The notes beneath the pieces were generated by a model. The model made no database searches. It had not been told where the DNA came from and saw only the letters and a list, made by a program, of their open reading frames with translations. A stretch of DNA of 64,000 nucleotides, taken from the NCBI GenBank assembly GCA_943331345.2, contig CALQLF020000005.1:229-64228 (forward strand), given 5' to 3'. Made by a program: the position numbers and the translations under genes. This DNA is from Candidatus Planktophila lacus (GTDB taxonomy: Bacteria; Pseudomonadota; Gammaproteobacteria; Steroidobacterales; Steroidobacteraceae). Each line of letters starts with the position of its first letter. The stretch's first letter is position 1. This document shows, piece after piece, positions 30,587 to 50,788 of the stretch.

Positions 30587-30597
30587 CTGTGCAACAA
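30587..30597. promoter_or_regulatory. GntR/FadR-type box CTGTGCAACAA
   Basis: Fits t-n-GT-N3-AC-n-a. It lies 58-68 nt upstream of the TonB-dependent receptor start (30529). Confidence 0.4.
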
Positions 30598-30761
30598 TTA
30601 TGAAGAAATCACGACCCCTCGAAATCCGTGGTCAGACTGGATTGAAGGCTCTGCGAACAGTGTCAAAAGCAAGAAAAAGCCGAAATATGGTATTTTTTGT
30701 TGTTTTTTTGCCGCATTTTTCTAGAGAAAAGATAGCCCTCCGCCGACTAATAGGTCAGTTG

Positions 30762-30772
30762 ATGTTGCACAA
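30762..30772. promoter_or_regulatory. GntR/FadR-type box (minus-strand reading TTGTGCAACAT)
   Basis: Same motif, upstream of the MFS gene starting at 30868/30922. Confidence 0.4.
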
Positions 30773-30867
30773 TAATATCGTTTTTTGAATCCGCATCTGG
30801 TCGATTCTTGCCCTTTTTGGTGCGAGACAACTAGCCGGTAGTCGCTTCCAGTGGCAAGATTTCTACA

Positions 30868-32061
30868 TTGATGATTGCGGCGCATAGCGCCGCACGCCCG
30901 ATAGATCCAACGGGAATTACCATGCTCGAGCGTCACGAACTGAAGGTTATTGCAGCGGCCATCTGGGTGGACATGGCAGCTGCGCAAACGGTCTTCATCC
31001 AACCCGCTTACGTCGATACTCTTGCGAACTACGGCGGTCTGGGGACAGAGCGAGCCGGCTACATTCTTTCTATCGAGATGATGGCGTTCGCCATTACAAC
31101 GATAGCGATGGCCCTTGTTTCACACCGAATCTCCTGGCACAAAACCCTTTGGACAGCTTTGTCCGTTATTGCCGCTGGCAACATAGCCAGTATTTTTGTC
31201 GCCGACCCCGCATATTTGCTTGCAGTGCGCCTAGTGGTTGGCGCGGCCTCCGGACTGGTGGTTCCAATCGCTTTCGCCACAGTGGGCCGCCTGCCCCGTC
31301 CAGAGCGAGCCTTCGGAATCATGATTGGAGTCCTGCTGCTTTATGCCGCAGGTTTCCTGAGTCTGATGCCTTTCTTTGCCAAAGTGGCGGGCGTTGGCGG
31401 ACTGATGGGCGGGATGCTTTTTACCTGCCTGCTCGGAATGCTCTTCATGGCGTGGTTTCCCGTCGAAGCAGCGCATCAAGACATAGCGCGGCCGGCAATG
31501 GGCCAGTGGCCGACACCCGGTCAGTGGCTGGCGTTGACAGGAATGCTGTTGTTCTTCACTCAGCTGACTTCATTCTGGTCCTTCGCTTCGGTGATCGCCG
31601 GGAATAACGGAGTCGCGGCCGGCACCGTAGCCGGCGCCTTAGCCATCTCGCAGGTAGCAGGTATTGCCGGCACCGCACTGCCCGCCATGGCAGGGAACCG
31701 GCTGGCAGTACCCATCGCTCTACTGCTCGCCATCGTTTGTTGTATTGCCGCTCCAGCACTGCTGCTGTTTCACACCGATGCCACGACCTTCCTTGCCGCC
31801 GTGATTTTCCTCCACTTCGGCTGGAACCTCGGCCATGCCTATCTGCTGGCTTTGTTCGCCAGACTGGATGCTTCCTCGCACCTCATCTTCATGGCGACCG
31901 CCATGCAGAAAATAGGCATCGCGGCAGGCCCGGCAATTGCGACCGTAATGTACGGCCGGAAGGGTGGCGACGCGGTGCTGCTGCTCGCGCTGGTCATTGG
32001 ACTCGTAGCTTTGGCGGCCCTTACGCCAGCAGCCAGAAGGCAAGCAACAGCCGCCCTCTAA
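30868..32061 (+). CDS. MFS-type transporter (paralog of 45127-46311)
   Basis: Multi-TM protein that aligns by eye with the 45127 protein (for example GAASGLVVPIAFATVGRLPRPERAFG versus GLGSGGIVSIGFASLGLSSRPDRSFG). An alternative start is the ATG at 30922. Confidence 0.7.
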   Translation: MMIAAHSAARPIDPTGITMLERHELKVIAAAIWVDMAAAQTVFIQPAYVDTLANYGGLGTERAGYILSIEMMAFAITTIAMALVSHRISWHKTLWTALSVIAAGNIASIFVADPAYLLAVRLVVGAASGLVVPIAFATVGRLPRPERAFGIMIGVLLLYAAGFLSLMPFFAKVAGVGGLMGGMLFTCLLGMLFMAWFPVEAAHQDIARPAMGQWPTPGQWLALTGMLLFFTQLTSFWSFASVIAGNNGVAAGTVAGALAISQVAGIAGTALPAMAGNRLAVPIALLLAIVCCIAAPALLLFHTDATTFLAAVIFLHFGWNLGHAYLLALFARLDASSHLIFMATAMQKIGIAAGPAIATVMYGRKGGDAVLLLALVIGLVALAALTPAARRQATAAL

Positions 32062-33653
32062 GCTTGTAATTCCTTACCGATGACTTTGCGCAGAATCGTG
32101 TCGGCTGGGCAGCTCAGTTTGTCTGCAGTCCAGCAAACAAACTGATCCGGACGGACAAGCACTAGTTGTACGCCGTAGCGTGACAAATGCTGCGATGTCA
32201 ATCCATCTACTACTGCAAAGGGAAGCCTTAAAGCCTCGGCAGCTTGGCGGAAATCCTCGACATCGTGCTGATCTGCCCCAAAACTCAGCAGAGCAAAGCC
32301 GGCGCCCAGCCGCTCATAGACATTGGTTCCATCCACCAAAGATAGTGGCGAAAGATGGTGCCCTGCGCGAGCTGCGTGTTGGTGATCTCCCAAGGCTGTT
32401 GGTTGCGCACCCGAATTTCCACAGACCACCGGTGACCCATCGTAATTCGGTGCAAACGATCCTACTTCTCCTGCGGTGCCCTTGGCGCGCGCGCTCCATG
32501 CGGCCTCGAATGCTTCGCGGTCGCGCTCCGGGTCATGGTTCGCAAGGAACTCGCCATCTACCCGAATGGAAGTCTCGATGAAATCCCTTGCCGTGGATTC
32601 GAACACCGGACGACGCTCGGCGTCATAGCTGTCGAGAAGGCCACCGCCTGCCCAGCCATTCAATTCTGCTGCCAACTTCCAGCCGAGATTACGCGCGTCT
32701 TCGAAACCCGAATTCACGCCATATCCACCATACGGCGGGTGGCTATGTGCGGCATCCCCGGCAATAAACACGTTACCCTTCCGGTAGTGGTCTGCGATGG
32801 CGATTCGCAATTGCCACAACCCACGGTAGTCATACTCGATAGAGAACTTCGTCCCGACCGCCTTGTGAAGATAGGCATCGAAGTCAAAGTTTTCTACCGT
32901 AGTGCCGATTGGGACGGGCGCATGAAAAAACCAGCTATTGCCAAGATTGACGCGCCCGAAAAACAACCAATAGCCGTGAAGCTCCGGGCTCAATACGTTG
33001 TAAAACGATTTGCCGGGATACCGCGCCAGCAACTCATGCAACTCAGTGGAGCGGAATACCAAAAGCGCCATAAGCCGATTGTGGTCGCGGCTGGTCTGAG
33101 TCATACCGGCTCGCTCGCGCACTGTCGAAGTACTACCATCGCAGCCTACTACGAAACGGCCTGACAACCACTTCGTTGCTCGTGTCTCCCTGTTCTCTAC
33201 TTTCACTGAAACACCGGCAACGCCGTCTTGCAGGTCAGTTACCGCGTAGCCATAGAGAAACTCAACGGTCGTCAGCTCGGCGGCGCGCTTGCGTAGTACG
33301 GCCTCAGTGGCGTACTGCGGCAAACGCTCGTTGTCCGTGAAGTAGTACGGTCGAACGATTTCGCGTTGCAACCAATCGTAATGATAATCACCAAGCAAGG
33401 TTCCGTATGAGGTCATACCACCAATTCCGTATTCCTTAGGAATGGTACGTGCGGCGCGCAGTTCTTTTTCGGCACCCCACGCATAAAAATGCTCCATGGT
33501 TCGCTGAGTGAGATTCTGCCCCTTCGGAATCGGTTGGGGCTCGAGATACTTCTCGACCACGACGACTCGGATACCGCGTTGTCCCAGTTCAATCGCCAAA
33601 CCCATGCCAACGGGCCCGCCGCCGACGATGATCACCTGCTGCTCGAAACTCAT
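32058..33653 (-). CDS. FAD-dependent aromatic-ring monooxygenase (PheA/TfdB/MhpA-like)
   Basis: 531 aa with VIIVGGGPVGMGLAIELGQRG (GxGxxG), GDAAHSHPPYGGYGVNSGFEDARNLGWKL, and a thioredoxin-like C-terminal extension. Confidence 0.85.
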   Translation of the reverse strand: MSFEQQVIIVGGGPVGMGLAIELGQRGIRVVVVEKYLEPQPIPKGQNLTQRTMEHFYAWGAEKELRAARTIPKEYGIGGMTSYGTLLGDYHYDWLQREIVRPYYFTDNERLPQYATEAVLRKRAAELTTVEFLYGYAVTDLQDGVAGVSVKVENRETRATKWLSGRFVVGCDGSTSTVRERAGMTQTSRDHNRLMALLVFRSTELHELLARYPGKSFYNVLSPELHGYWLFFGRVNLGNSWFFHAPVPIGTTVENFDFDAYLHKAVGTKFSIEYDYRGLWQLRIAIADHYRKGNVFIAGDAAHSHPPYGGYGVNSGFEDARNLGWKLAAELNGWAGGGLLDSYDAERRPVFESTARDFIETSIRVDGEFLANHDPERDREAFEAAWSARAKGTAGEVGSFAPNYDGSPVVCGNSGAQPTALGDHQHAARAGHHLSPLSLVDGTNVYERLGAGFALLSFGADQHDVEDFRQAAEALRLPFAVVDGLTSQHLSRYGVQLVLVRPDQFVCWTADKLSCPADTILRKVIGKELQA

Positions 33654-35452
33654 TTTTCCTGCCTCATTGGGGACCGTGGCTTGGTAGAGCGACCCCCGCT
33701 ATTGACTGTCGTTACACCGCCGGGAGGGCGCCATTCGAAATGGGTACGGACGTTGCTCCAGTCCGACGGAAAGTACGGAATCGGGACTACGCCCTGCCGA
33801 GCGGCCCACTCGTTCCAGCGCGAAACCATCGCCGCGAGGATTGCCGGCTTCTGCGCCGCTAGGTCGTGCTGTTCGGCCGGGTCTTTGGCGATATCGAATA
33901 GGGCCCATTGTTCGTTCGGTCCCCAGGGTGGGTTTTGCCACACGATCTTCCAATTACCCATTCGCCCCGCCCTGCGCGCCCAGAGCTCCCATCCGAAGAA
34001 CTCTTCCACCGGGTGCAGTTCTCCGACTGATTGGGCTTCGAAGGCAGGTCGAAGGCTTCTGCCTTCCAAAGGCTCGATGGGTCTACCCTCAAATTGACTT
34101 TGCGGAACGTCGAGTCCAGCGTAATCCAGCAACGTCGGCACTATGTCGAGAACATGGGTAAATGCGCCATTCAGCGAGCCACTACGTCGGATACCAGGGC
34201 CGCTGGCGATGAACGGTACGCGCGTCCCACCTTCCGTAGCGAAGCCCTTATCAAGACGGAACGGCGTATTGCTCACATGAGCCCATTGGGGTCCGTACCA
34301 CACGTGCGAGCCCGGCTTACCCATCTTTTCAAAGCTCAGTTCACGTTCACGCTCGGCCCATCGGTACCAATCACGCCCCCCGAAATCCAGTGGATTCCCT
34401 CCGTCCGCCCCGTTGTCAGACATGAACACGACAATCGTATTGCGAAGTTGACCGCTCGCCCGCAACGCTGCAATGACGCGGCCTACCTCCCGGTCGAGCG
34501 AGCCGATCATCGCGGCGTAGATTTCCATCCGCCGCTCTTCGAGTTGTCTGATGTCCGCGGGTAATGCAGACCAAGCTGGCCAATCGGAGTCAAACGGCGC
34601 CGCGGTTGTCGCATCTCCAACGACACCTAGGCGACGTTGCTGCGCGAGACGTGCAGCGCGAATTTCTTCATAGCCTTTAGCGTAACGACCACGCTGTCGG
34701 TCAATGTCGTCAGTAGGCGCTTGCAGCGGCCAATGCGGTGCCGTGAACGTGAGCAGGGCAAAAAAAGGCTTTGACCGATCGCCCGCGGCAAGGAACCCAA
34801 TCATCTTGTCCGTGAAAGTTCGGGAACTATAGAAATTCTTCGGTAACTCAACCTCTTGGCCGTTTTCGACATACTTGACGGTCGGTATATCTGGGAACAC
34901 CCCGCGTCGATCAAAATGGGAGGCGGCGCCTTGAATAAGGGCGAAGTGCTGTTGGAATCCTCTGGCAGCGGGGCGATAGGCGACATCACGGGCCCCGCCC
35001 ATATCCCATTTTCCCGACAGCATGGTTTGGTAGCCAGCCCCCGCCAACATCTCGGCGATCGTAGCCACACGATAGGTGAGGACTGCCTCGTAACCGCGTT
35101 TTCCCTCAGTCTCCGGCGTCCAGTCACCTGCCATCGTCCCGAAGCCAGCGTTGTGTGGAGAAGCCCCTGTCAGCAACGCTGCCCTAGTCGGCGAGCAGGC
35201 GGCGTAAGTATGAAAATTGGTCAAACGAATACCCGACCGAGCGAGGCGATCTAGGTTCGGAGTAGCGATTTCTGAGCCGAAGGCGCCAAGATCGGAATAG
35301 CCCATATCGTCGGCGACAATGACCAAAAAATTTGGTCGGCCTGCGGGAGTGGATTGACTAGATGGCGTGGAGGCCCGCGTGTAGTCGATCGACAAAGCAA
35401 ACAGAACGAGCATGCAAGCGATGCTTCGGACCGATGACCGCAAAATGCACAC
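33650..35452 (-). CDS. arylsulfatase (formylglycine-dependent sulfatase family), exported
   Basis: 600 aa with a signal peptide, NFLVIVADDMGYSDLG, and the CSPTRAALLTG formylglycine motif. Confidence 0.9.
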   Translation of the reverse strand: MCILRSSVRSIACMLVLFALSIDYTRASTPSSQSTPAGRPNFLVIVADDMGYSDLGAFGSEIATPNLDRLARSGIRLTNFHTYAACSPTRAALLTGASPHNAGFGTMAGDWTPETEGKRGYEAVLTYRVATIAEMLAGAGYQTMLSGKWDMGGARDVAYRPAARGFQQHFALIQGAASHFDRRGVFPDIPTVKYVENGQEVELPKNFYSSRTFTDKMIGFLAAGDRSKPFFALLTFTAPHWPLQAPTDDIDRQRGRYAKGYEEIRAARLAQQRRLGVVGDATTAAPFDSDWPAWSALPADIRQLEERRMEIYAAMIGSLDREVGRVIAALRASGQLRNTIVVFMSDNGADGGNPLDFGGRDWYRWAERERELSFEKMGKPGSHVWYGPQWAHVSNTPFRLDKGFATEGGTRVPFIASGPGIRRSGSLNGAFTHVLDIVPTLLDYAGLDVPQSQFEGRPIEPLEGRSLRPAFEAQSVGELHPVEEFFGWELWARRAGRMGNWKIVWQNPPWGPNEQWALFDIAKDPAEQHDLAAQKPAILAAMVSRWNEWAARQGVVPIPYFPSDWSNVRTHFEWRPPGGVTTVNSGGRSTKPRSPMRQEK

Positions 35453-35455
35453 TAT

Positions 35456-36271
35456 CTATGCTCCGACCGCAGCCAGCGCTTCATCAACACGAGAATGCCA
35501 CGCAAGCACATCAGTCATTTCCTCGATGTCAGTGAACACGAAGAACTTTTCCTGCTCTATCGCTCCGGCAACCAGCTCTCCCGCTTCGGCCGGATCCATA
35601 GCGCGCCGCATGGCTGCCAGCACACCGGGGCTCGGCTCCCGGGTGGTCGGTCCGCCATGCTTCGCACTACGGTATGTACTGGACCACGGTAGATTTGTAC
35701 GAACGTATCCCGGGCAGAGCACTGTCACGCCCACGCCCGAACCAATCAGATCTTGTCGCATGCCTTCTGAGAGGAAAGTGACTGCCGCCTTGGTAGCTCC
35801 ATACAATCCGTGATGTATTCCGGAAGGAAGAGCCAGGCCGGACATCGATGAAACATTCACAACCCAACCACTGCGCCGCTCTACCATTCCCGGAACAACG
35901 GCTTTGATGCCATTCAAGACACCTTTGAGGTTCACGTCCAGAACCCAGTCAATGTCGTTGTCCGGTGTCTGATGTAGTGGAACACCGGAATATCCAACGC
36001 CGGCGTTGTTAATCAACACCTCAATGAGCCCGAGATCCCGCTCGATATAGCTAACGACACCGCCGAATGCCGGACGATCACTGACATCAAGAGGATAGGT
36101 AAGCACGCGGCCCCGATACCCGGAGAAGTAGGCGCGGGTTTCCTCGAGGGCCTCGGGTCTGACATCGGTTATCGCCACCCTTGCCCCTCTGGAGAGCAGT
36201 ACCCCGGCAATGCCGCGACCAATGCCGCTCGCACCGCCTGTCACCAAGGCGACCCGGTCTGAGAGATTCAT
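35456..36271 (-). CDS. SDR family oxidoreductase
   Basis: 271 aa with VALVTGGASGIGRG, NNAG, and YGATKAAV (YxxxK). Confidence 0.85.
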   Translation of the reverse strand: MNLSDRVALVTGGASGIGRGIAGVLLSRGARVAITDVRPEALEETRAYFSGYRGRVLTYPLDVSDRPAFGGVVSYIERDLGLIEVLINNAGVGYSGVPLHQTPDNDIDWVLDVNLKGVLNGIKAVVPGMVERRSGWVVNVSSMSGLALPSGIHHGLYGATKAAVTFLSEGMRQDLIGSGVGVTVLCPGYVRTNLPWSSTYRSAKHGGPTTREPSPGVLAAMRRAMDPAEAGELVAGAIEQEKFFVFTDIEEMTDVLAWHSRVDEALAAVGA

Positions 36272-36295
36272 GCAACCTCAACCCAGTTCACCGAG

Positions 36296-36736: not shown

Positions 36737-36782
36737 GTTCGGTATCCTCTGGCTGCTATCCGTCGCATGCATACGCCACCAA

Positions 36783-37022
36783 TCACGACTGTTCCGCAAC
36801 ACCTACTACTTGGCCTACTGCTGCGTTCTCACCCTCCGGAACCTTGATTTCGATCAGTTTCCCGTCGAATAACGCTTCAACCTCAAAAGTCACCTTGTCC
36901 GTCTCGATGTCGTAGATGGTTTCACCGGTGACAAAGCTTTCTCCGGGCTGCTTGCGCCAGGTCAAAATCATCGCTTCTTCCATGTTCATGCCGACACGGA
37001 CCAGAATGAGGTCGATGTTCAT
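36783..37022 (-). CDS. stand-alone lipoyl-attachment domain protein (79 aa)
   Basis: The ATG at 37022 forms an ATGA overlap with the E1-beta stop. The lipoyl-lysine motif DIETDKVTFEVEA sits inside a single biotin/lipoyl hybrid-barrel-sized protein. Confidence 0.75.
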   Translation of the reverse strand: MNIDLILVRVGMNMEEAMILTWRKQPGESFVTGETIYDIETDKVTFEVEALFDGKLIEIKVPEGENAAVGQVVGVAEQS

Positions 37023-39030: not shown

Positions 39031-39055
39031 CAGCGTCGGTTCTCGTGAAGTGGGA

Positions 39056-43444: not shown

Positions 43445-43470
43445 GGGCGATCGACCCGAAACACGTAAGA

Positions 43471-43672: not shown

Positions 43673-45115
43673 ATGTCAGACCCTGTCTACCATTTCATCG
43701 CAGGCGAGTACACCGCCTCCAGCGATGGAGCCATTGCCGCGAGCCTTGACCCGGCCACGGGTGCCGTCATCGGACATTTTGCCGCCGGCGGTGAGATGGA
43801 GGCCGCCGCGGCCATTGCTGCCGCCCGACACACATTTGATACCTCTGTGTGGTCGCGATCCCCCCTGCTCCGTGCGAAAGTGCTGCTCGAACTGGCAGAC
43901 CGTCTGGAGGCCGAAAAGACCAGCATCGCGAACTTGCTCACGGCCGAGAACGGTAAAATTCTGCGTCAATCGCAGGGGGAACTCGGAATAGCCATCTCGG
44001 AGCTCCGCTACTATGCAGGCCTAGCACGTACGCTTTACGGGCGGGTCATCGAACTCGAGCCACAGCTTTACTCGATGCTCGGGCGCGAAGCGATGGGTGT
44101 TGCCGGCATCATCGTTCCGTGGAATGCACCCATCATCCTGCTCATTCGCTCGCTCGCGCCCGCACTAGCTGCTGGCTGCACATGTGTCATCAAGGCCGCG
44201 CCCCAGACTGCCCTCACTAATGACGCCGTAGTGCGGCTCATGGCTAATCTAAAGTCACTACCTCCGGGCGTTGTTAATAGCTTCACGGAAACCGGCAGTG
44301 CGGGTGCCGCAGAAATCGTCGCGTCTCTCGATGTCGATGTCTTGAGTTATACGGGCAGCACTGGCGTCGGCAAGAAAATCATGGCGGCGGCGGCGGGTAC
44401 CCTGAAACGGCTTAACCTAGAGCTAGGCGGAAGTGCCCCTTGCCTTGTATTCGATGATGCGGACCTCGACAGAGCCATTCCCGAGTTGGTAGCCGCAGGA
44501 ATGGTTATGGCCGGCCAGCAGTGTGTTGCCGCCAGCCGACTGTTAGTTCATTCCTCTATCGCGGAAAAAGCAGAACGACTATTCGCCGCAGCGCTTGAAC
44601 GTGTACGCGTCGGGCCCGGCCGCGATCCCACGAGCGAGATGGGGCCGTTGATTGATGTCGCAAATCGTGACCGAATACTGAAACTACTGGATACGGCCAA
44701 GGCATCTACCGATGCCATCGTCCTCGGCAGCGCGCTGCAAGGGAAAAACGCTCATGGCGCCTTTGTCACGCCGAGTCTCCTGCGGGTTCGGGACCGGGCA
44801 GCGGCAGTCCTTCAAGAAGAAGTGTTCGGGCCAGTCATGACACTCGACGTCTTTGACGACGAGGAAGAGGCCGTCCATGTCGCCAATTCAAGCCGCTTCG
44901 GCCTAGCGGCAAGCGTCTGGTCGAGCGACCTGCGGCGTGCACAGCGCGTCGCCGCCCAACTCCGCAGCGGCACTGTCTGGCTCAACCGCCATGGCCATCT
45001 GGCGCCAGAAGCGGAGACGGGTGGGTACCGGGAGAGTGGCATCGGCCGATTGCATGGCGTCGAGGGACTAGGCGAATTCATGCAAACCAAACATATTCAA
45101 TGGGCCACGAGTTGA
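43673..45115 (+). CDS. NAD(P)-dependent aldehyde dehydrogenase
   Basis: 480 aa with LELGGSAP, MAGQQCVAASRL (catalytic Cys) and EEVFGPV. Confidence 0.9.
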   Translation: MSDPVYHFIAGEYTASSDGAIAASLDPATGAVIGHFAAGGEMEAAAAIAAARHTFDTSVWSRSPLLRAKVLLELADRLEAEKTSIANLLTAENGKILRQSQGELGIAISELRYYAGLARTLYGRVIELEPQLYSMLGREAMGVAGIIVPWNAPIILLIRSLAPALAAGCTCVIKAAPQTALTNDAVVRLMANLKSLPPGVVNSFTETGSAGAAEIVASLDVDVLSYTGSTGVGKKIMAAAAGTLKRLNLELGGSAPCLVFDDADLDRAIPELVAAGMVMAGQQCVAASRLLVHSSIAEKAERLFAAALERVRVGPGRDPTSEMGPLIDVANRDRILKLLDTAKASTDAIVLGSALQGKNAHGAFVTPSLLRVRDRAAAVLQEEVFGPVMTLDVFDDEEEAVHVANSSRFGLAASVWSSDLRRAQRVAAQLRSGTVWLNRHGHLAPEAETGGYRESGIGRLHGVEGLGEFMQTKHIQWATS

Positions 45116-45126
45116 GTTGCTGACTT

Positions 45127-46311
45127 ATGCAGATAACGCCTGATTACGACGCGAATCAACCCTTCAACGTTGACAGCACGAAGTGTGTTGCCGCGGGCAT
45201 CTTCATGGGCGTCATGGGAGGCGAGGTATTCATCGTGCAGCCCGGGTTCGTCCAGGGGTTGGTGGAATACGCGCATTTTTCTGAGCAACAGGCGGGGTTC
45301 GTCGCGTCAGCGGAGATGTCTGGATTTGCAGTAGTCACACTACTGATTGGCGCTCTCTCAGGCCGCTTGCCGTGGCGGCGTGTCCTAGCCGTCTGCATAG
45401 GACTCGCAGTCGTCGGCAACTTGCTTTCATTGCTGGTACAAACCCCGGGTTGGTTCGCCGGAATGCGCTTCATTACCGGTCTGGGAAGTGGTGGAATTGT
45501 ATCGATCGGCTTTGCTTCCCTGGGTTTGTCCAGCCGTCCGGATCGCAGCTTCGGGTTCATGGTCATGTGGTCGGGCGTCTACGGCGCGGTGGTGCTCTTC
45601 GCCATGCCGACTGCTTACAGTCTGGTTGGTATGAACGGCGTCATTTGGTTCTTTGCGTTGCTGGCTGCCGCCGGTTTTCTGTTCGTGCCATGGATGCCCG
45701 CCTCTGGAACGCAGCATGTGACATCGGAATCGAGTGCTGTCGACCTCGGCTGGTTCTATAAGTCGCTAGCGTTGACGGCAATGCTTTTTTATTTTCTAGC
45801 ACAGGGGGTTGTCTGGGCCTACTTGTTCCGTATCGCCACCGACGCCGGGATTTCGGAGCAGGCTGCGGCCAATGGCCTGACGCTTGCGCAACTCGGCGGC
45901 GTTATCGGCGCGCTGGTTCCCGCACTGGTCGGTGCCCGCTTCGGGAGAGCACCGATGCTATTCATAGCCATTGCTTGCGGAATCATCCCGCTGGTCTTCT
46001 TCATGTACGGCGGCCTGACCGCTACGCTCTATACGGTTGCTGTGTTCATTTACAACTACGGCTTCAACAAGGCACACCCCTACTTACTGGCGACGATGGC
46101 GACTTTCGACCAGACCGGGCGCGTGGTAACCCACGCAGTCGCGTTGCAGACCTTGGGTCTTGCCATTGGTCCCGCAGTCGGTGGATTGCTAGTAGAAGGG
46201 AGTTCCTTTGATCGCATCAATACATTGGGTATCGCACTATTCGCTGTGTCGCTGGGCGCCATACTTGCCCCCGTCCTCAAGCAGCGCTCAATGCCACAAC
46301 GTTCTGACTAA
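45127..46311 (+). CDS. MFS-type transporter (paralog of 30868-32061)
   Basis: 394 aa, multi-TM, similar to the 30868 protein along its length. Confidence 0.75.
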   Translation: MQITPDYDANQPFNVDSTKCVAAGIFMGVMGGEVFIVQPGFVQGLVEYAHFSEQQAGFVASAEMSGFAVVTLLIGALSGRLPWRRVLAVCIGLAVVGNLLSLLVQTPGWFAGMRFITGLGSGGIVSIGFASLGLSSRPDRSFGFMVMWSGVYGAVVLFAMPTAYSLVGMNGVIWFFALLAAAGFLFVPWMPASGTQHVTSESSAVDLGWFYKSLALTAMLFYFLAQGVVWAYLFRIATDAGISEQAAANGLTLAQLGGVIGALVPALVGARFGRAPMLFIAIACGIIPLVFFMYGGLTATLYTVAVFIYNYGFNKAHPYLLATMATFDQTGRVVTHAVALQTLGLAIGPAVGGLLVEGSSFDRINTLGIALFAVSLGAILAPVLKQRSMPQRSD

Positions 46312-46331: not shown

Positions 46332-47129
46332 CTACCCGGAGTGCGTGAGGAAATCGAGGCGCCCGCCGTCGACCGCGAGAACTTGCGCGGTCATAAACGC
46401 AGCGTCATCACTCGCGAGAAAGGCTACAGCACCAGCGACGTCGTTCGGCTTGCCAATGCGCGCAATGAGTTGACGCTTGCTAGGGGAATTCCGTAAGCCA
46501 ACGAACGCCTCGTTATCGGCCGTCTCTTCCAGCATATCCGTCTCTATCAGGCCGGGGCAGAGCGCATTGACAGTAATGCCACGTGGACCTAACTCGAATG
46601 CCAAGCGCTTAGTCAGCATGTTGAGGGCAGCTTTGACGACGGCGTAGGGCGCAACTCCGCCGATAGCCGTTCCCAATCCCCCCACCGAACTGATATTGAT
46701 GATTCGCCCGACTCCTCCGGTCTCAAGGAACGGTGCCGCCGCCATTGCGCACCATAAGGGCCCTTTCAGGTTGACGGCAATCGCAGAATCTAGTTGCTCG
46801 GAATCGGTCTCCAGCATCTTTCCGGTAACTGCACGCCCTGCATTGTTAACCAGAATATCTAGCCTACCCAAGGTGGTGGCAACACTAGACACCGCAGTGA
46901 CAACCGCGCTGCGCTCGGCAACGTCGCAGCAAACGGCAGTGGCCCGCCCCCCGAAGGCTGCAATCTCGGATATAACTGCCGCGGCTGCCGCCGTATTCGT
47001 GCGGTACAAAATGGCAACAGTCGCGCCTTCCTCAGCAAGCCTGATCGCAATGGCGCGGCCGATTCCTCGTGAACCGCCGGTAACCAGCGCCACCCTGCCG
47101 CTTAGGCGACTGAAACCATATTGGGGCAT
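46332..47129 (-). CDS. SDR family oxidoreductase (FabG-like)
   Basis: 265 aa with VALVTGGSRGIGRA, NNAG, and YAVVKAAL (YxxxK). Confidence 0.85.
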   Translation of the reverse strand: MPQYGFSRLSGRVALVTGGSRGIGRAIAIRLAEEGATVAILYRTNTAAAAAVISEIAAFGGRATAVCCDVAERSAVVTAVSSVATTLGRLDILVNNAGRAVTGKMLETDSEQLDSAIAVNLKGPLWCAMAAAPFLETGGVGRIINISSVGGLGTAIGGVAPYAVVKAALNMLTKRLAFELGPRGITVNALCPGLIETDMLEETADNEAFVGLRNSPSKRQLIARIGKPNDVAGAVAFLASDDAAFMTAQVLAVDGGRLDFLTHSG

Positions 47130-47133
47130 TTTC

Positions 47134-47607
47134 TTAGGCGCGCGTCACACTGTGGATAACGCCCGGCATAAAGCGAACTTCCGGCTTCGCAGAACTCTTG
47201 TCACCATAGTTTAAAAGTGAACAATCAAAAAGCGTGCTTTGGTTGAGGTCGATTAGTAGCGTGACGAAGTCATAGTCCTCGTCGGCACGTTCATCGTTCC
47301 AGCGCACGCGATAGACGCCCGAATCCAATTTGTGCGCCGCATAACTAACATTACGCCCAGTCTTTCCTTTCACCACTCCGGCAAGGCCTCGCCAATTGAC
47401 GAAACCTTTTTGAAACGAGATCTCAAAAGACTGGCCATCTACCAAGGTATACACCAATGTCGTCCCATCCAACAACGCAACCGGGACAACCACATCGTTA
47501 CGAGCACCTTCTCCGTGTAGTTCCGGCGTTGTCGCCTGCGCGACTCCGCAAATCATGGCGAGTGCAGCGACAATTAGCGGTTGTATGTTTTTTTTGAGAG
47601 CGTTCAT
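47134..47607 (-). CDS. secreted small beta-barrel protein, PadC/MoaF-like (calycin fold suspected)
   Basis: 157 aa with signal peptide MNALKKNIQPLIVAALAMICGVAQA. The pattern LVYTLVDGQSFEISF...VNWRG...GVYRVRWNDE...FVTLLIDLN...F resembles phenolic acid decarboxylase / MoaF N-terminal barrels. GAGGAAG precedes the ATG. Confidence 0.6.
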   Translation of the reverse strand: MNALKKNIQPLIVAALAMICGVAQATTPELHGEGARNDVVVPVALLDGTTLVYTLVDGQSFEISFQKGFVNWRGLAGVVKGKTGRNVSYAAHKLDSGVYRVRWNDERADEDYDFVTLLIDLNQSTLFDCSLLNYGDKSSAKPEVRFMPGVIHSVTRA

Positions 47608-47661
47608 CGGTTCTTCCTCATGAATTGAGCGCGCTTGAGCGATATAACAAGAAAACGTGGC

Positions 47662-48168
47662 CTACCGACGCTCGGCGGCGCTGTAAATGAAGCCAGGTGC
47701 CCAATGGATGATGTGCGGTCCTGCACGGTTAGGGCCGTAATTGAAGAGTGACGCAGCGAATATGCGACGAGTCTTCAGGTTGATATGAAGACTTGCCCAC
47801 TCAAGGTCGCCTTGCGGTGAGCTTTCGATGAAGGAGACCATATACTCTCCTTCGCTTATCTCATGGGCCTTGTAGGGAGATCCCTTGACGCCGCTGATCG
47901 GTCCATAAACCCTGCGCCCGCCATCCGTAAAGTCCAGCGTTCGCTCCTCCCAGTCCAGCAATCCGTTGTCGAAGCTAACTTTGTATGCAGTGGGCGTGCC
48001 GTCGATGTAACTGTACTGAATGGTTACTCCGTCAAGGATGGAGGTAGAAATACCGGTTTCATGCGGTGTGTCTACTGGTGAAGATAGCGCCGCGGTACTC
48101 GTCGCCAGTAGCGCTCCGGCCCACATTACCATCAAGTATTTAGCGGCAGTATTCGTCGTGATTCCCAT
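47662..48168 (-). CDS. secreted small beta-barrel protein, paralog of 47134-47607
   Basis: 168 aa with a signal peptide. It aligns by eye with the neighbour (IQYSYIDGTPTAYKVSF..LDWEE / GEYMVSFIES...WASLHINLKTRRIFAASLFNYG / WAPGFIYS). Confidence 0.6.
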   Translation of the reverse strand: MGITTNTAAKYLMVMWAGALLATSTAALSSPVDTPHETGISTSILDGVTIQYSYIDGTPTAYKVSFDNGLLDWEERTLDFTDGGRRVYGPISGVKGSPYKAHEISEGEYMVSFIESSPQGDLEWASLHINLKTRRIFAASLFNYGPNRAGPHIIHWAPGFIYSAAERR

Positions 48169-48232
48169 AGGGGTTCTCTATTTGTTCCAGAAGTTCGGAC
48201 AGTTTTGTGACGTTAGTCGCCGATGGCGCTGT

Positions 48233-50581
48233 TCAGAAATCCATCCCGAACGTCACCCCGAACGTGCGCGGGTCGCCAGGGATGCCCATGATTGAGTCAA
48301 CCCCGAATTCCTGCGCGTAATGGATGACTAGCTCGTTGGTCAGATTCTTTCCCCACAACGAGACACGGTATCTCTCCTCCGGTCCAAAGTTACAGGACAA
48401 GAACGCGTTCATCAGGAAGTCTGGTGGATTGGTTCCGTAGACGCGAGTCGCCGCAGTGTCAACGAGTCGAAGTTCGTTGGCGGAAGCGTAATTCCCGCTG
48501 ATGTTGGCCTTAACGCGCGCATTACCCGCGAGCACGTACTCCTTAGTTACACCAAAACTCCCGGTGAATTTTGGTGCGTTGGGAAGATTTCGTCCAACCT
48601 CGATAGAGGCGATGCCGTTGGTGCGAATGCCGACCGTGTCGCGAGTGACCTTCGTATCGAGGACACCCATCGCTAGGTTGAAATTCCAGCCGCCACCAGG
48701 CGCCAAACGGGCTTCAAATTCTGCGCCACTGATTTTCGAGTTACCAACATTGACGACCGTAGCTGAAACGCCACCGGACGCTGTCGGTATCGAAATCTGA
48801 GCCTGCTGATTCTTGTAGTCCATGTGGAACGCGGCGAAGTTGGTCAGCAGCTTTCGATCGAACCACTCCTGCTTGAAGCCGACTTCATATGCAACCACGG
48901 TCTCCGGATCTACTGGCGTGAAGAAAACACCCTGCAGCACGGCATCAGGCGAGTCGGTGAACTGCCCGCCCTTTTCACCACGTGTTATGGAGCCGTAGAG
49001 CAGTGCACCAGAGTCCATCTTGTACTCTAGGCCGAGCTTTCCGCCCCACATGTTCCAGGACTTGCCGAACGGCGCGTTGTTTACGTCCGGGCCGAGTCGG
49101 GTCTCCGATACACCAACCGGCGCTGCGCTGTAACGTCGCAGGTTATTAAAGAGGAACTGATCTGGTTGCTCGGGATCCAGACCGCCACCTGGCGCAAGCG
49201 TGAAGTCCGCATGCGTTGCATTCACTACGCCATATTGCTTCTCATAGAGCAGACGGGCGCCCGCATTAAGAGTCAACTTTTCATTCACGTCGAACTTGAT
49301 GTCGCCAAAGATGCTAGCCATACGTGTCTTCTGCTGAGCTTTTCCAGCATCGGAGAACAACATCAGGATGGGGATTGCTGTCTGGTAGTCCACTTTCTCG
49401 ACGAACCCATAGGCGCCGGTAATCCAACGCAGCCGCTGGTCGGTTTTCGAGGTAAGACGGAACTCCTGGGACCATTGTTCAGTCTTGGCTTTCTGACGGA
49501 AGTAGACGAAGAAATTCGTCGAATCCAGTTCTATACCGTCGTCGTCTTCCCAAAGATCGGACTGGTTCCGCTCATGTGCGCTAATCGATAGGAAATCGAA
49601 AGTTCCAGCGTCAAGATCGTACCGAGCAGACCCGCCAAATGCGTTCACGTCGTTGCGGTTGTTCTTCATGCCGACGTACACCTCGTCGGTATTCGGGTTG
49701 GTCGCATATCCACCGGCATCAACGCAATTTGTCTCGAAGGTATCTAGGTTGATGCTGGTACAAGCGCCGCCACCCGGACCAACCATTCCGTGCGACTTGT
49801 AGGGACGCTGCTCGCCCTTGCGCGTTCCGCCATGAACGTTGAACAGCCACTTGGCCGTGTCGGAGGAGTCAATGGATAGCTGGGCACGGGCCATGTGCTG
49901 ATGCGTGTTCCCAACCCTGTCTCCCGGGATATGAAGATTTTTCCAATAACCCGAGTTATTCAGCGACTGGACGGAGATTCGGAACGCTGCCGATTCGCCG
50001 ATATCGAAGCCGGCCGCGCCTTCCAAGTTGAAGGTACCTGCGTTACCGATGGTCGCGTCGGCGTAACCATTCGTTCCATCACCAGCCCGCGGGCGCCGCG
50101 AGATGAAGTTGACTGCACCGCCAGTGCTGTTGCGACCGTAGAGCGTGTTCTGTGGTCCGCGAACAATTTCGATTCGCTCATTGTCGAAGATAAAGAGGCC
50201 GGAGGTTTGAGGCGAACTCTGAGCGACCTCATCCTGATAAACCATGACCGGCTGGACCCCGACAGGAGAGAAGGTCGAGTAGCTGATTCCACGGAATGAC
50301 AATTGGACTTGGCCTGCGGCCGCAGTCTGCTGAAAAGTGACGTTGGGGACGCCATCAAAGAGCCCACGAGGGTCGACGACGCTTTTCTCGCGGAGCTCCG
50401 CGCCGGATAGGGCTGTCACCGCCACGGCTACGTCCTTCAGCGACTCCTGCCGCTTCTGTGCGGTCACCACCACTTCCTCGAGTTGGGCATGGGCGGGCAA
50501 TGCACACCCCAAGGCGGTAGCGACTAACGCGGCATGGATTGCACGTTGAACGGGCGTTCGCGGGGCCGATTGACTGTTCAC
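48233..50581 (-). CDS. TonB-dependent receptor
   Basis: The start is taken at the GTG at 50581, with GGAG 5 nt upstream. It has signal peptide ...ALVATALGCALPAHAQ, plug LEEVVVTAQKRQESLKDVAVAVTAL, and a C-terminal ...TFGMDF. Confidence 0.85.
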   Translation of the reverse strand: MNSQSAPRTPVQRAIHAALVATALGCALPAHAQLEEVVVTAQKRQESLKDVAVAVTALSGAELREKSVVDPRGLFDGVPNVTFQQTAAAGQVQLSFRGISYSTFSPVGVQPVMVYQDEVAQSSPQTSGLFIFDNERIEIVRGPQNTLYGRNSTGGAVNFISRRPRAGDGTNGYADATIGNAGTFNLEGAAGFDIGESAAFRISVQSLNNSGYWKNLHIPGDRVGNTHQHMARAQLSIDSSDTAKWLFNVHGGTRKGEQRPYKSHGMVGPGGGACTSINLDTFETNCVDAGGYATNPNTDEVYVGMKNNRNDVNAFGGSARYDLDAGTFDFLSISAHERNQSDLWEDDDGIELDSTNFFVYFRQKAKTEQWSQEFRLTSKTDQRLRWITGAYGFVEKVDYQTAIPILMLFSDAGKAQQKTRMASIFGDIKFDVNEKLTLNAGARLLYEKQYGVVNATHADFTLAPGGGLDPEQPDQFLFNNLRRYSAAPVGVSETRLGPDVNNAPFGKSWNMWGGKLGLEYKMDSGALLYGSITRGEKGGQFTDSPDAVLQGVFFTPVDPETVVAYEVGFKQEWFDRKLLTNFAAFHMDYKNQQAQISIPTASGGVSATVVNVGNSKISGAEFEARLAPGGGWNFNLAMGVLDTKVTRDTVGIRTNGIASIEVGRNLPNAPKFTGSFGVTKEYVLAGNARVKANISGNYASANELRLVDTAATRVYGTNPPDFLMNAFLSCNFGPEERYRVSLWGKNLTNELVIHYAQEFGVDSIMGIPGDPRTFGVTFGMDF

Positions 50582-50640
50582 GAGGACTCCTAACAGGCGA
50601 GATTTCAGTAGGAGCCGAAGACTAACCAAAACCCATATAT

Positions 50641-50651
50641 TTGTACAACAA
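50641..50651. promoter_or_regulatory. GntR/FadR-type box TTGTACAACAA
   Basis: Lies 60-70 nt upstream of the TonB-dependent receptor start (50581). Confidence 0.45.
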
Positions 50652-50777
50652 TATTGTGTATTTGTGGTTTTCACGCGACGTCGAGGGCGCTGATTGCTCT
50701 GTTCTAGAACTTTTTTTGCGGTTTTTGTAGTGATATGTTTTTTTAGAGACAAGTGGCGGCGAATTGGAGGCAATGTT

Positions 50778-50788
50778 TTGTAGTACAG
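50778..50788. promoter_or_regulatory. GntR/FadR-type box TTGTAGTACAG
   Basis: Lies 84-94 nt upstream of the aminotransferase start (50872). Confidence 0.4.

What the first reader, a model, noticed from the sequence alone, without database searches (positions are those of the whole stretch)
30587..50788. Seven copies of a TGT-N3-ACA box confined to the island's four promoter regions: a predicted GntR regulon
The boxes read directly from the sequence are:
- CTGTGCAACAA (30587)
- TTGTGCAACAT (30762-30772, minus-strand reading)
- TTGTAGTACAA (39864)
- GTGTACAACAA (39949)
- CTGTGCAACAT (43471)
- TTGTACAACAA (50641)
- TTGTAGTACAG (50778)
All fit the FadR-subfamily GntR operator template t-n-GT-N3-AC-n-a with A/T-rich flanks. 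All lie 27-150 nt upstream of operon starts: receptor 1, MFS 1, the E2 operon, the ALDH-GntR-ADH operon, receptor 2 and the aminotransferase. By eye I found no such box in the short intra-operon gaps of the island or in the flanking core regions. The island encodes exactly one FCD-type GntR regulator (41211-41861), whose own operon carries a box. Together this ties at least six transcription units into one putative regulon.
Basis: partly seen in the sequence, partly recalled or inferred. Interest (0 to 1): 0.65.

Follow-up and report, generated by a model that had tools for sequence, protein, structure and literature searches.

The report
Operator boxes of a GntR regulon
Seven short palindromic DNA boxes in front of the operons of a 26-kb catabolic island are almost certainly the binding sites of the island's own GntR-type regulator; the finding is real and well conserved but is an ordinary kind of bacterial gene switch.

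Summary
All lie in the four AT-rich intergenic regions of a lower-GC island (about 26.3-52.2 kb). The count is far above chance: 7 observed against 0.22 expected from dinucleotide shuffles, and this is the top pattern among 576 palindromic patterns tested. The full motif is a 17-19 bp AT-rich palindrome, a-w-w-w-T-TGT-n-S-n-ACA-A-w-w-w-t.

The same FCD-type GntR (44-100% identity) sits next to an aldehyde dehydrogenase gene in 20 further contigs; those that carry taxon names are Sphingomonadaceae/Erythrobacter, and one regulator is named from the gammaproteobacterium Pseudomaricurvus. In these contigs the same motif occupies the intergenic regions in front of TonB-dependent receptor, MFS, arylsulfotransferase, E1/E2 dehydrogenase, aminotransferase and glyoxalase-family genes. 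A matrix built only from orthologous loci ranks the seven window boxes as the top seven hits in 64 kb.

The motif matches the published FadR-subfamily consensus (TKGT-N3-ACMA). One box is identical to the E. coli DgoR operator core.

The likely mechanism is an effector-released, autoregulated repressor with promoter-proximal and distal operators. Binding, the sign of regulation and the effector are untested. This is a new member of a known kind and of moderate interest, mainly because it delimits an uncharacterised, possibly aryl-sulfate-related, pathway.

The parts
30583..30601 (.). Box 1 (AAAACTGTGCAACAATTAT), the proximal operator of the TonB-dependent receptor 1-arylsulfotransferase operon. 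It lies 59 nt upstream of ATG 30529.
   Evidence: 21.2 bits with the orthologue-derived matrix. In gene orientation TTGTTGCACAGTTTT is conserved in the window and 10 orthologous loci, always 59-61 nt from the start codon. It overlaps a candidate -35 (TTGTTG), which is followed after 17 nt by a conserved GATTAG/GGATAA-like hexamer.
30758..30776 (.). Box 2 (GTTGATGTTGCACAATAAT). It lies 234 nt upstream of receptor 1 and about 97-151 nt upstream of MFS1. It is a distal operator and/or the MFS1 operator.
   Evidence: 14.4 bits. A second box 153-163 bp from the proximal one is conserved in the orthologues. There it lies behind the 3' end of an MFS gene, so it cannot be a promoter element of a divergent gene.
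39860..39878 (.). Box 3 (AAAATTGTAGTACAAAAAA), 30 nt upstream of the E2-E1a-E1b-lipoyl-glyoxalase-SDR-sulfatase-hydroxylase operon (ATG 39835, - strand).
   Evidence: 18.5 bits. The core TTGTAGTACAA is identical to the E. coli DgoR IR1 core (PMC11705089). It is too close to the start codon for an upstream activator site.
39945..39963 (.). Box 4 (CTAAGTGTACAACAAAAAT), 115 nt upstream of the E2 operon and 77 nt downstream of the ADH stop codon.
   Evidence: 15.6 bits. A pair of boxes 85-87 bp apart, behind the regulator operon and ahead of the E1 operon, is conserved in all Sphingomonadaceae-type loci. The window pair is 85 bp apart.
43467..43485 (.). Box 5 (AAGACTGTGCAACATTTTT), 28-40 nt upstream of the ALDH1-GntR-ADH operon (the autoregulatory site). 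It lies 27 nt upstream of a TTGACC candidate -35 of the divergent ALDH2-MFS2 operon.
   Evidence: 17.2 bits. At the homologous place in the orthologous ALDH1 promoters (TTGACG-N12-TGGTCCACA) there is a conserved one-mismatch box. The window reads TTGCTA-N12-TGTTGCACA.
50637..50655 (.). Box 6 (ATATTTGTACAACAATATT), the proximal operator of the receptor 2-hyp168-MoaF-like-SDR2 operon. It lies 61 nt upstream of GTG 50581.
   Evidence: 21.7 bits, the best hit in the window. The layout is the same as at receptor 1: TTGTTGTACA, then 17-18 nt, then GGTTAG.
50774..50792 (.). Box 7 (TGTTTTGTAGTACAGTTAT), 85 nt upstream of aminotransferase ATG 50872 and 198 nt upstream of receptor 2.
   Evidence: 13.1 bits. 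A second box in the receptor/aminotransferase divergent region is conserved in the orthologues as TGTTCTACA.
41211..41861 (-). The GntR-family, FCD-type regulator, proposed to bind the boxes.
   Evidence: Pfam GntR 55.9 bits and FCD 82.9 bits. The AlphaFold model has pLDDT 91; its top PDB fold matches are FCD regulators (7u5q, Atu1419/VanR, PmiR, TM0439). SRTPVR, the wing Asn, and N130/H134/H177/H199 are conserved in the orthologue group. The ATG 41861 start is favoured because orthologues align only from residue 26-27 of the longer ORF.
26295..30529 (-). Regulated unit 1: TonB-dependent receptor 1 (28211-30529) and arylsulfotransferase (26295-28160).
   Evidence: Pfam; synteny and boxes in the orthologues.
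30868..32061 (+). Regulated unit 2 (probable): MFS transporter 1.
   Evidence: Pfam. In the orthologues this MFS follows the aminotransferase in a box-preceded operon.
32058..39835 (-). Regulated unit 3: E2 catalytic domain, E1 alpha, E1 beta, 79-aa lipoyl protein (36783-37022), glyoxalase/VOC, SDR1, Cys-type sulfatase and FAD aromatic hydroxylase.
   Evidence: Pfam and NCBIfam. The sulfatase has a CSPTR motif and a signal peptide.
40035..43444 (-). Regulated unit 4: ALDH1 (StyD-like), GntR and Zn-ADH.
   Evidence: Pfam and NCBIfam. ALDH-GntR adjacency is kept in every orthologous locus that covers the regulator's upstream flank.
43673..46311 (+). Probable unit 5: ALDH2-MFS2. It shares the divergent region with box 5. 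There is a weak extra candidate site at 43596-43614 (4.8 bits).
   Evidence: In L019 (regulator 72% identical) the same divergent ALDH pair shares one box. In the orthologues the MFS2 promoter has a full box 16 nt upstream of TTGACC.
46332..50581 (-). Regulated unit 6: receptor 2, hyp168, MoaF-like and SDR2.
   Evidence: There is a weak candidate site at 48178-48196 (7.3 bits) in the hyp168/receptor gap.
50872..52221 (+). Regulated unit 7: class III aminotransferase.
   Evidence: NCBIfam. A GAGGA ribosome-binding site lies before ATG 50872.

Best explanation
The seven boxes are operators of the island's own FCD-type GntR regulator (41211-41861). They define a local regulon of six or seven transcription units for TonB-dependent uptake and catabolism of an aromatic, possibly sulfated, substrate.

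Proposed mechanism:
- A regulator dimer binds each 17-19 bp A/T-rich palindrome (T-TGT-N3-ACA-A), with its winged helix-turn-helix domains on the two half-sites. This is inferred from the family.
- Promoter-proximal boxes overlap the core promoter or the leader, so the protein most likely represses. This is inferred from positions.
- A second, distal box 85-175 bp away in three of the four regions probably strengthens repression by cooperative binding or looping. This is inferred by analogy with Atu1419/VanR.
- A small-molecule pathway intermediate bound at the Asn + 3 His metal site of the FCD domain releases the protein. This is inferred.
- The regulator gene lies in a box-preceded operon and is therefore autoregulated. 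The arrangement is shown; the function is inferred.
For: Enrichment in the window:
- 7 boxes against 0.22 expected, with 0 of 5000 shuffles reaching 7.
- TGT-N3-ACA is the top pattern of 576 palindromic patterns.

Independent matrix and independent loci:
- A matrix from orthologous loci picks exactly the seven boxes as the top seven hits of 64 kb.
- De novo enumeration in L005, L020 and L023 gives the same pattern first or second.

Phylogenetic footprinting:
- Boxes sit at conserved positions in 15 syntenic contigs with regulators about 53-71% identical.
- Box columns show a 0.88-0.91 majority fraction, against 0.48-0.68 for the other intergenic columns.

Co-occurrence with the regulator over long distances:
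- In loci with regulators 72, 53, 51, 47 and 44% identical, all 14 hits of at least 14 bits are intergenic and lie next to ALDH, receptor, MFS, E1, aminotransferase or glyoxalase genes. Non-coding DNA is only about 5-11% of those loci.
- The 40% identical homologue has an unrelated gene context.

Regulator and motif type:
- This is the only regulator in the island.
- The motif equals the published FadR-subfamily consensus with GT-N3-AC, and box 3 equals the DgoR IR1 core.
- The HTH specificity positions are Glu rather than Arg at position 28, Pro at 40 and Asn at 59. By the published correlations these predict A/T next to the GT, which gives TTGT/ACAA as observed.
- The FCD fold and the conserved N130/H134/H177/H199 match the Asn137/His141/His192/His214 zinc site of Atu1419.

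Evidence for repression:
- Site centres lie only 8-44 nt from start codons in the window (boxes 3 and 5) and in L019-L023.
- The box overlaps the candidate -35 at both receptor promoters.
Against: - There is no experimental binding, expression or transcription-start data.
- The sigma-70 consensus scan finds no promoter in any of the four regions. All statements about box position relative to -35/-10 therefore rest on conserved hexamers that I read from alignments.
- The core of the orthologue matrix was selected with the same TGTN3ACA pattern. Only the flanks, the central S and the de novo tests are independent.
- At the MFS2-type promoter the box lies upstream of the candidate -35. This position is also compatible with activation.
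- The rest of the genome could not be scanned, so regulon members or competing sites elsewhere are unknown.
- A second FCD regulator in L020 shows that paralogues with similar HTH residues exist.
Confidence: 0.8

Rival explanations
1. The boxes are real operators of the local GntR, but the protein activates some or all of the promoters or acts dually, as FadR does at fabA.
For: Box 5 lies 27 nt upstream of the TTGACC candidate -35 of ALDH2-MFS2. The orthologous MFS2 promoters carry the box 16 nt upstream of TTGACC, a position typical of class I activators. Some FadR-subfamily members are known activators or dual regulators (general knowledge of FadR and GlcC).
Against: Many sites lie 8-44 nt from start codons or overlap the candidate -35, which does not fit upstream activation. 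The nearest characterised relatives found here (Atu1419/VanR, DgoR, PmiR) are described as repressors.
Confidence: 0.12
2. The boxes are operators of a different transcription factor encoded elsewhere in the genome, for example a paralogous FCD/GntR protein or a global regulator. The linkage to the local GntR would then be coincidental.
For: GT-N3-AC motifs are shared by many FadR-subfamily regulators. A second FCD regulator with the same SRTP/Asn residues lies in locus L020. The rest of this genome could not be inspected.
Against: The regulator gene is the one constant neighbour of the motif across 44-100% identity and several lineages, while the target genes vary. There is no other regulator in the island or its flanks.
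Confidence: 0.06
3. The boxes are not regulatory protein sites. They would instead be a by-product of AT-rich promoter DNA, sigma-factor promoter elements, or copies of a short mobile repeat.
For: The four regions are unusually AT-rich (42-47% GC against about 63%). The proximal boxes contain TTG, which resembles a -35 element.
Against: - Composition-matched shuffles never reach the observed count.
- The boxes are palindromic, occur in both orientations, and lie at 28-234 nt from starts, including behind 3' gene ends.
- No longer repeat includes them, and there is no Rfam family in the island.
- The GG-N10-GC spacing of sigma-54 promoters is absent (read from the sequence).
Confidence: 0.02

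Closest known systems
Atu1419 (VanR) of Agrobacterium fabrum, an FCD-type GntR repressor of the hydroxycinnamate/vanillate degradation cluster (PMC7797058)
   Same: - An alphaproteobacterial FCD regulator of an aromatic catabolic gene cluster.
- Among the top fold matches (TM 0.64-0.72).
- Same metal-site signature of Asn + 3 His, and a conserved Glu in helix alpha2 with Arg/Thr/Arg in the recognition helix.
- Short GT...AC palindromes overlapping -10 or lying between -10 and -35.
- Palindromes in pairs 109-190 bp apart, bridged by a tetramer through DNA looping, and autoregulation.
   Different: - Only 24-27% identity.
- Its operator is ATGTATACAT (GT-N2-AC, 10 bp), not T-TGT-N3-ACA-A.
- It controls two promoter regions, against four regions and six or seven units here.
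- Its effector is known; the effector here is unknown.
- Tetramer formation by the window protein was not tested.
DgoR of Escherichia coli, a FadR-subfamily repressor of D-galactonate catabolism (PMC11705089)
   Same: The operator core TTGTA(G/C)TACA(A/T) is identical to box 3 and close to box 7. It has two inverted repeats at the promoter, the regulator gene lies in the regulated operon, and the effector is bound at a metal-containing FCD pocket.
   Different: It is a distant relative (PDB 7c7e, E 1.3e-6). There are no dgo genes here. Most boxes here have GCA/ACA centres. DgoR's repeats are closely spaced at one promoter, whereas here the sites are spread over four regions.
FadR of E. coli, the archetype of the subfamily with solved DNA complexes
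   Same: A wHTH + helical effector domain that binds as a dimer to a palindrome with GT-N3-AC spacing.
   Different: The FadR operator is TGGT-N3-ACCA, read by Arg35 and Gly66. The window protein has Glu and Asn at those positions and its sites read TTGT/ACAA. The C-terminal domain matches FadR only weakly (TM 0.45-0.52). FadR's ligand is acyl-CoA.
PmiR of Pseudomonas aeruginosa (PDB 7xp0/7xp1), a 2-methylisocitrate-sensing GntR regulator (PMC9728974)
   Same: The best sequence match among solved structures (E 1e-18; named). It is an FCD regulator that protects two adjacent sites in its target promoter.
   Different: About 27-29% identity. It controls the prp operon and quorum-sensing genes. 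Its reported sites at the pqs promoters are GC-rich and unrelated to the motif here.
PhnR-type phosphonate-utilisation regulators (NCBIfam TIGR03338)
   Same: The best NCBIfam model for the regulator (113.7 bits).
   Different: The score is far below the curated cut-off of 271.5, and there are no phosphonate genes in the island. It is not a member.

Membership tests
GntR family, FadR subfamily (FCD-type regulators) | N-terminal GntR-type winged helix-turn-helix domain | tested here: met
   PF00392 at 55.9 bits against a cut-off of 27. The model shows three helices plus a two-strand wing at residues 5-67.
GntR family, FadR subfamily (FCD-type regulators) | All-helical C-terminal FCD effector/oligomerisation domain | tested here: met
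   PF07729 at 82.9 bits against a cut-off of 24.3. The model has pLDDT 91 with helices only from residue 72 onward. The top 30 or so PDB fold matches are FCD regulators.
GntR family, FadR subfamily (FCD-type regulators) | Metal/effector site of Asn/Asp + three His, as in Atu1419 and TM0439 | tested here: inconclusive
   N130, H134, H177 and H199 are invariant in 24 homologues. Their spacing of 4/43/22 compares with Asn137/His141/His192/His214 in Atu1419. Geometry and metal binding were not examined.
GntR family, FadR subfamily (FCD-type regulators) | Operator is an A/T-rich palindrome with TKGT/ACMA boxes, with GT and AC 3 nt apart (2 nt in some groups) | tested here: met
   The motif from 59 orthologous sites and the 7 window sites is a-w-w-w-T-TGT-n-S-n-ACA-A-w-w-w-t, compared with the consensus quoted from PMC4494728.
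GntR family, FadR subfamily (FCD-type regulators) | The protein binds these sites and is released, or altered, by a small-molecule effector | not testable with these tools
   This needs EMSA or footprinting, DAP-seq and ligand screening.
Local autoregulated catabolic regulon (comparative-genomics criteria as used for RegPrecise-type reconstructions, PMC4494728) | The motif is conserved upstream of orthologous genes in several genomes that carry the orthologous regulator, including the regulator's own operon | tested here: met
   The own-operon site is box 5 in the window. In the Sphingomonadaceae-type loci the ALDH1 promoter carries a conserved one-mismatch box.
DgoR orthologous group | Orthology to E. 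coli DgoR and linkage to dgoKADT | tested here: not met
   The PDB DgoR chain 7c7e matches only at E 1.3e-6. No dgo-type genes are in the island. Only the operator core is shared.
PhnR (TIGR03338) equivalog | Score at or above the curated cut-off | tested here: not met
   113.7 bits against a cut-off of 271.5.
Tetrameric, DNA-looping VanR-type FCD repressors (Atu1419) | Tetramer bridging two palindromes about 100-200 bp apart | not tested
   Paired boxes 85, 137 and 175 bp apart in the window, and a conserved 85-87 bp pair in the orthologues, are compatible with this. The oligomeric state was not examined, and no consistent helical phasing was found for the longer spacings.

The most novel reading that the evidence does not exclude
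The regulon delimits an undescribed pathway that is widespread in freshwater Sphingomonadaceae-type bacteria and is also linked to at least one gammaproteobacterial lineage. In this reading, sulfated and/or aminated aromatic compounds are taken up by dedicated TonB-dependent receptors. They are desulfated in the periplasm by an arylsulfotransferase and a Cys-type sulfatase. They are then processed by an aminotransferase or alcohol dehydrogenase, a StyD-like aldehyde dehydrogenase, and an unusual split E1/lipoyl-carrier/E2 system. One FCD regulator, sensing an aromatic acid intermediate, controls all of this through looped operator pairs.
Probability: 0.3. Interest if true: 0.55.

Novelty: new member of a known kind. 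Interest (0 to 1): 0.4.

Why it matters
The regulon ties about 20 genes of otherwise unassignable function into one co-regulated unit. No gene in it reaches an NCBIfam equivalog cut-off. The set includes two TonB-dependent receptors, an arylsulfotransferase, a sulfatase, a split 2-oxoacid/acetoin-type dehydrogenase, two aldehyde dehydrogenases, an aminotransferase and two MFS transporters. The unit is conserved in many freshwater Sphingomonadaceae-type contigs and in more distant relatives.

This gives a concrete experimental handle. One repressor can be deleted, one 19-bp operator can serve as a reporter, and one effector can be screened for. Together these could identify the substrate of a dissolved-organic-matter uptake pathway and a physiological role for bacterial arylsulfotransferases.

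As a regulatory mechanism it is textbook FadR/VanR-type control and would not surprise a specialist.

Tried and rejected
1. Sigma-70 consensus and intrinsic-terminator scans of the four regions found nothing. Promoter positions are therefore only inferred from conserved hexamers in alignments.

2. Sigma-54 promoter reading of TTGCA in the boxes was rejected. No conserved GG lies at the required 10-nt spacing (sequence).

3. A mobile-repeat or MITE origin was rejected. No longer direct or inverted repeat contains the boxes.

4. Known RNA elements were rejected. Rfam gives no hit in 26-52.5 kb, and there are no tRNAs in the window.

5. A second TCTAGA/T-run motif in the intergenic regions was not pursued. 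It occurs 2 times against 0.17 expected, which is not significant after multiple testing, and it is not conserved in the orthologues.

6. Helical phasing of operator pairs gave no general rule. The 85-88, 64, 53, 115, 126 and 137 bp spacings are near integral helical turns. The 120, 132, 153-163, 173 and 175 bp spacings are not.

The FadR correspondence rests instead on phmmer ranges against PDB chains.

8. A text search for PDB code 7XP0 found nothing. Its identity as PmiR came from the fold-search description.

9. A literature search for this gene combination found no description.

10. A genome-wide background test was not possible.

Full report
**Observation.** The seven boxes are present exactly as described. 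Their cores start at 30588, 30763, 39865, 39950, 43472, 50642 and 50779. The window holds 15 TGT-N3-ACA matches, and the other eight are all inside coding DNA. The seven lie in four intergenic regions (30530-30867, 39836-40034, 43445-43672, 50583-50800). Together these make about 980 bp at 42-47% GC, while all other intergenic regions of the window are 48-70% GC and carry no box.

The regions are AT-rich, so I tested against dinucleotide-preserving shuffles of the regions themselves. The mean was 0.22 matches, the maximum was 3 and none of 5000 shuffles reached 7. To correct for by-eye discovery I enumerated all 576 patterns of the form XXX-N0-8-rc(XXX). TGT-N3-ACA came first with Poisson P 4e-9, whereas the best minimum P in 300 shuffled sets was 3.6e-5. 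When oriented, the core reads TGTRCWACA, and the central base is C or G in all seven.

**Surroundings.** The boxes lie in a lower-GC block (about 26.3-52.2 kb, 55-60% GC against 62-67% in the flanks). Its genes are as follows:
- arylsulfotransferase and TonB-dependent receptor 1;
- MFS1;
- an eight-gene operon: E2 catalytic domain, E1 alpha, E1 beta, a stand-alone 79-aa lipoyl protein, a glyoxalase/VOC protein, SDR1, a Cys-type sulfatase with signal peptide and CSPTR motif, and an FAD aromatic hydroxylase;
- ALDH1 (closest to StyD phenylacetaldehyde dehydrogenase), the GntR/FCD regulator and a Zn-ADH;
- a divergent ALDH2-MFS2 pair;
- SDR2, a MoaF-like protein, a 168-aa protein with no family, and receptor 2;
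- a class III aminotransferase.

No protein reaches an NCBIfam equivalog cut-off. The GntR/FCD protein is the only transcription factor in the island or its immediate flanks. I revised several starts: receptor 2 GTG 50581, aminotransferase ATG 50872, lipoyl protein 37022, E2 ATG 39835, ALDH1 probably GTG 43432, and regulator ATG 41861.

**Related loci.** One genome scan and one metagenome scan with the regulator gave the same organism (L001, a Lake Erken MAG; L008 is 98% identical and probably the same or a sister population). They also gave 15 syntenic contigs, mostly Sphingomonadaceae/Erythrobacter MAGs, with regulators about 53-71% identical. One further locus (L018, 27% identical) was set aside as unrelated. 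The gene order in these contigs is: arylsulfotransferase-lipoyl-receptor 1; MFS2; ALDH1-GntR; E1a-E1b-glyoxalase(-SDR2-SDR1, or MoaF/hyp168); a second receptor; aminotransferase-MFS1.

In all of these contigs TGT-N3-ACA boxes occupy equivalent intergenic positions:
- about 60 nt and about 222 nt upstream of receptor 1;
- one in the MFS2/ALDH1 divergent region;
- two behind the regulator gene and ahead of E1a, 85-87 bp apart (the window pair 39865/39950 is 85 bp apart);
- two in the receptor/aminotransferase divergent region.

In alignments the boxes are islands of conservation. Their columns have a majority fraction of 0.88-0.91, against 0.48-0.68 for the remaining intergenic columns. Fifty-nine unique orthologous sites give the motif a-w-w-w-T-TGT-n-S-n-ACA-A-w-w-w-t, and the centre is always C or G. 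The matrix built from these sites, which excludes the window, ranks the seven window boxes as the top seven of the 64-kb window (13.1-21.7 bits, next hit 7.6 bits).

**More distant homologues.** A protein search returned only generically named GntR regulators, in a graded identity series. I fetched contexts at 72, 53, 51, 47 and 44% identity (L019-L023). The 51% protein carries an NCBI name from the gammaproteobacterium Pseudomaricurvus alkylphenolicus. All five keep an aldehyde dehydrogenase next to the regulator or within the same locus. All carry subsets of arylsulfotransferase, sulfatase, TonB receptor, MFS, class III or IV aminotransferase, Zn-ADH, glyoxalase and E1/lipoyl/E2 genes, plus differing ring-cleavage modules.

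All 14 matrix hits of at least 14 bits in these five loci are intergenic and lie next to such genes, although non-coding DNA is only 5-11% of the sequence. De novo enumeration in L005, L020 and L023 again puts TGT-N3-ACA first or second. A 40% identical homologue has an unrelated context. The regulator gene is thus the constant partner of the motif while the targets vary. This is the standard comparative-genomics argument for assigning a motif to a regulator.

**Fit of the regulator to the motif.** The protein has Pfam GntR and FCD domains. Its AlphaFold model is confident (pLDDT 91) and shows a wHTH followed by an all-helical domain. Its best PDB fold matches are FCD regulators: a Brucella GntR, Atu1419/VanR, PmiR, AlkR/VanR and TM0439.

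The published survey of GntR motifs states that FadR-subfamily sites are A/T-rich palindromes with TKGT/ACMA boxes. [quoted passage not shown] The DgoR IR1 sequence AATTGTAGTACAACAAT contains the exact core of box 3 (PMC11705089).

The same survey links three HTH positions to the base next to GT. Arg at position 28, Ser at position 40 and Gly at position 59 go with G/C, while Pro at 40 avoids G/C and Asn at 59 leans to A/T. Using the phmmer correspondence to FadR, the window protein has Glu, Pro and Asn at these positions, and they are conserved in the orthologue group. This agrees with TTGT/ACAA rather than TGGT/ACCA. It is a soft consistency check, not proof. Invariant N130, H134, H177 and H199 parallel the Asn137/His141/His192/His214 zinc site of Atu1419.

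**Likely mechanism.** Shown: the arrangement, conservation and family assignment. Inferred: everything about function.

At receptor 1 the gene-oriented sequence TTGTTGCACAGTTTT is conserved in the window and ten orthologues. Seventeen nucleotides after TTGTTG comes a conserved GATTAG/CGTTAG/GGATAA hexamer, and the start codon lies 59-61 nt from the box. Receptor 2 in the window has the same layout. I read this as an operator overlapping the -35 element. The simple sigma-70 scan, however, found no consensus promoter in any region.

At ALDH1 the window has TTGCTA-N12-TGTTGCACA where the orthologues have TTGACG-N12-TGGTCCACA, so the box sits between a candidate -35 and the transcription start. 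Box 3 is 30 nt from the E2 start codon. In distant loci site centres lie 8-37 nt from start codons. These positions favour repression.

The distal boxes cannot all be promoter-linked. In the orthologues the one upstream of receptor 1 lies behind the 3' end of MFS2. They probably act as auxiliary operators. Atu1419/VanR offers a documented precedent in the same structural group: palindromes 109 and 190 bp apart are bridged by a tetramer through a DNA loop, with operators over the -10 or between -10 and -35 (PMC7797058). I found no consistent helical phasing apart from the conserved 85-87 bp pair.

Box 5, and the orthologous MFS2 box, lie upstream of a TTGACC candidate -35. Activation or dual control at that promoter therefore cannot be excluded. 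The effector is unknown. Given the invariant ALDH partner, an aromatic acid or aldehyde intermediate is the natural guess.

**Rivals.**
- A non-local regulator is unlikely, given the strict co-occurrence of motif and regulator gene, but it cannot be excluded without binding data.
- Chance, composition, promoter-element, repeat and RNA readings were tested and rejected.

**Comparison and novelty.** The system works like Atu1419/VanR and DgoR. It is a bona fide member of the FCD branch of the FadR subfamily: both domains, the fold and the operator type all pass. It is not a DgoR or PhnR orthologue; those tests failed. The held literature contains no description of this gene combination.

It is therefore a new member of a known kind. 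The regulatory logic is ordinary and would not surprise a specialist. The value lies in the robust delimitation of a conserved, uncharacterised uptake and catabolic island that links TonB-dependent receptors with an arylsulfotransferase and a sulfatase.

**Verdict.**
- Observation: confirmed.
- Interpretation: supported.
- Confidence that the boxes are operators of the local GntR: about 0.8.
- Confidence that the protein acts mainly as a repressor: about 0.7.
- Interest: 0.4.

Noticed in passing
window 36783-37022 (-) and 39056-39835 (-); L002-L017 about 4136-4349: The E2 component is split. A stand-alone 79-aa lipoyl-domain protein overlaps the E1 beta stop codon by 4 nt. A separate 259-aa protein carries only the acyltransferase catalytic domain and has no lipoyl or E3-binding domain. 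In the Sphingomonadaceae-type clusters the lipoyl gene sits between the arylsulfotransferase and receptor 1, and no E2 catalytic gene is present.
   Followed up: partly
window 47134-47607 (-) and 47662-48168 (-): The MoaF-like protein and the 168-aa protein with no family are the best conserved proteins of the island. They are 74-76% and 87-91% identical in L009/L014, against about 55-77% for the neighbouring genes. Their function is unknown.
   Followed up: no
window 26300-52220: The island is a lower-GC block (55-60% against 62-67%). It is syntenic with clusters in Sphingomonadaceae genomes whose locus GC is 55-58%, which suggests horizontal acquisition. No tRNA gene was found in the window, and none of the island or immediately flanking ORFs that I scanned is an integrase or transposase. 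The left neighbours are CoA-transferase A/B and a GST.
   Followed up: partly
L002-L016, about 20-75 nt downstream of the second box ahead of E1a (e.g. L005 10765-10830): A conserved block, GATTCCCnGyCACTGcagc..AACAGttGCAG..., with an internal inverted repeat lies between the operator and the E1a start codon. It could be a 5'-UTR hairpin or promoter element. It is absent from the window, where an E2 gene is inserted.
   Followed up: no
L019 3202-6838; L022 520-1756; L023 545-1177 and 3391-4458: Distant members of the regulon carry different aromatic ring-cleavage modules: FAD hydroxylase + cupin + FAA hydrolase + GST (gentisate-like) in L019, LigAB in L022, and cupin + GST in L023. This points to hydroxylated aromatic acids as pathway intermediates.
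   Followed up: partly
window 33650-35452 (-) and 26295-28160 (-): The sulfatase has an N-terminal signal peptide and the CSPTR formylglycine motif, making it a Cys-type sulfatase. The arylsulfotransferase has an N-terminal hydrophobic segment. Both are therefore probably periplasmic, acting on whatever the co-regulated TonB receptors import. No formylglycine-generating enzyme gene was seen in the island.
   Followed up: partly
window 39869/39954; L003-L016 (e.g. L005 10667/10753): The centre-to-centre spacing of the operator pair ahead of the E1/E2 operon is held at 85-87 bp, about 8 helical turns, across lineages even though the sequence between the boxes is not conserved.
   Followed up: partly
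L020 15479-16141: A second FCD-type GntR, 38% identical to the window regulator with the same SRTP and wing Asn residues, lies in the same cluster next to MFS, Zn-ADH and sulfatase genes. This may be a case of regulator duplication within the regulon.
   Followed up: no
window 30707-30731, 43546-43556, 50696-50712: T-runs with TCTAGA or CTCTAG occur in three of the four intergenic regions. They are not significant after multiple testing and are not conserved in the orthologues.
   Followed up: yes
window 48178-48196 and 43596-43614: Two weak matrix hits: 7.3 bits (CTATTTGTTCCAGAAGTTC) in the hyp168/receptor 2 gap, and 4.8 bits (TGTTTTGATGTACACTTTT) 73 nt upstream of ALDH2. They could be degenerate extra operators or chance matches.
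   Followed up: no
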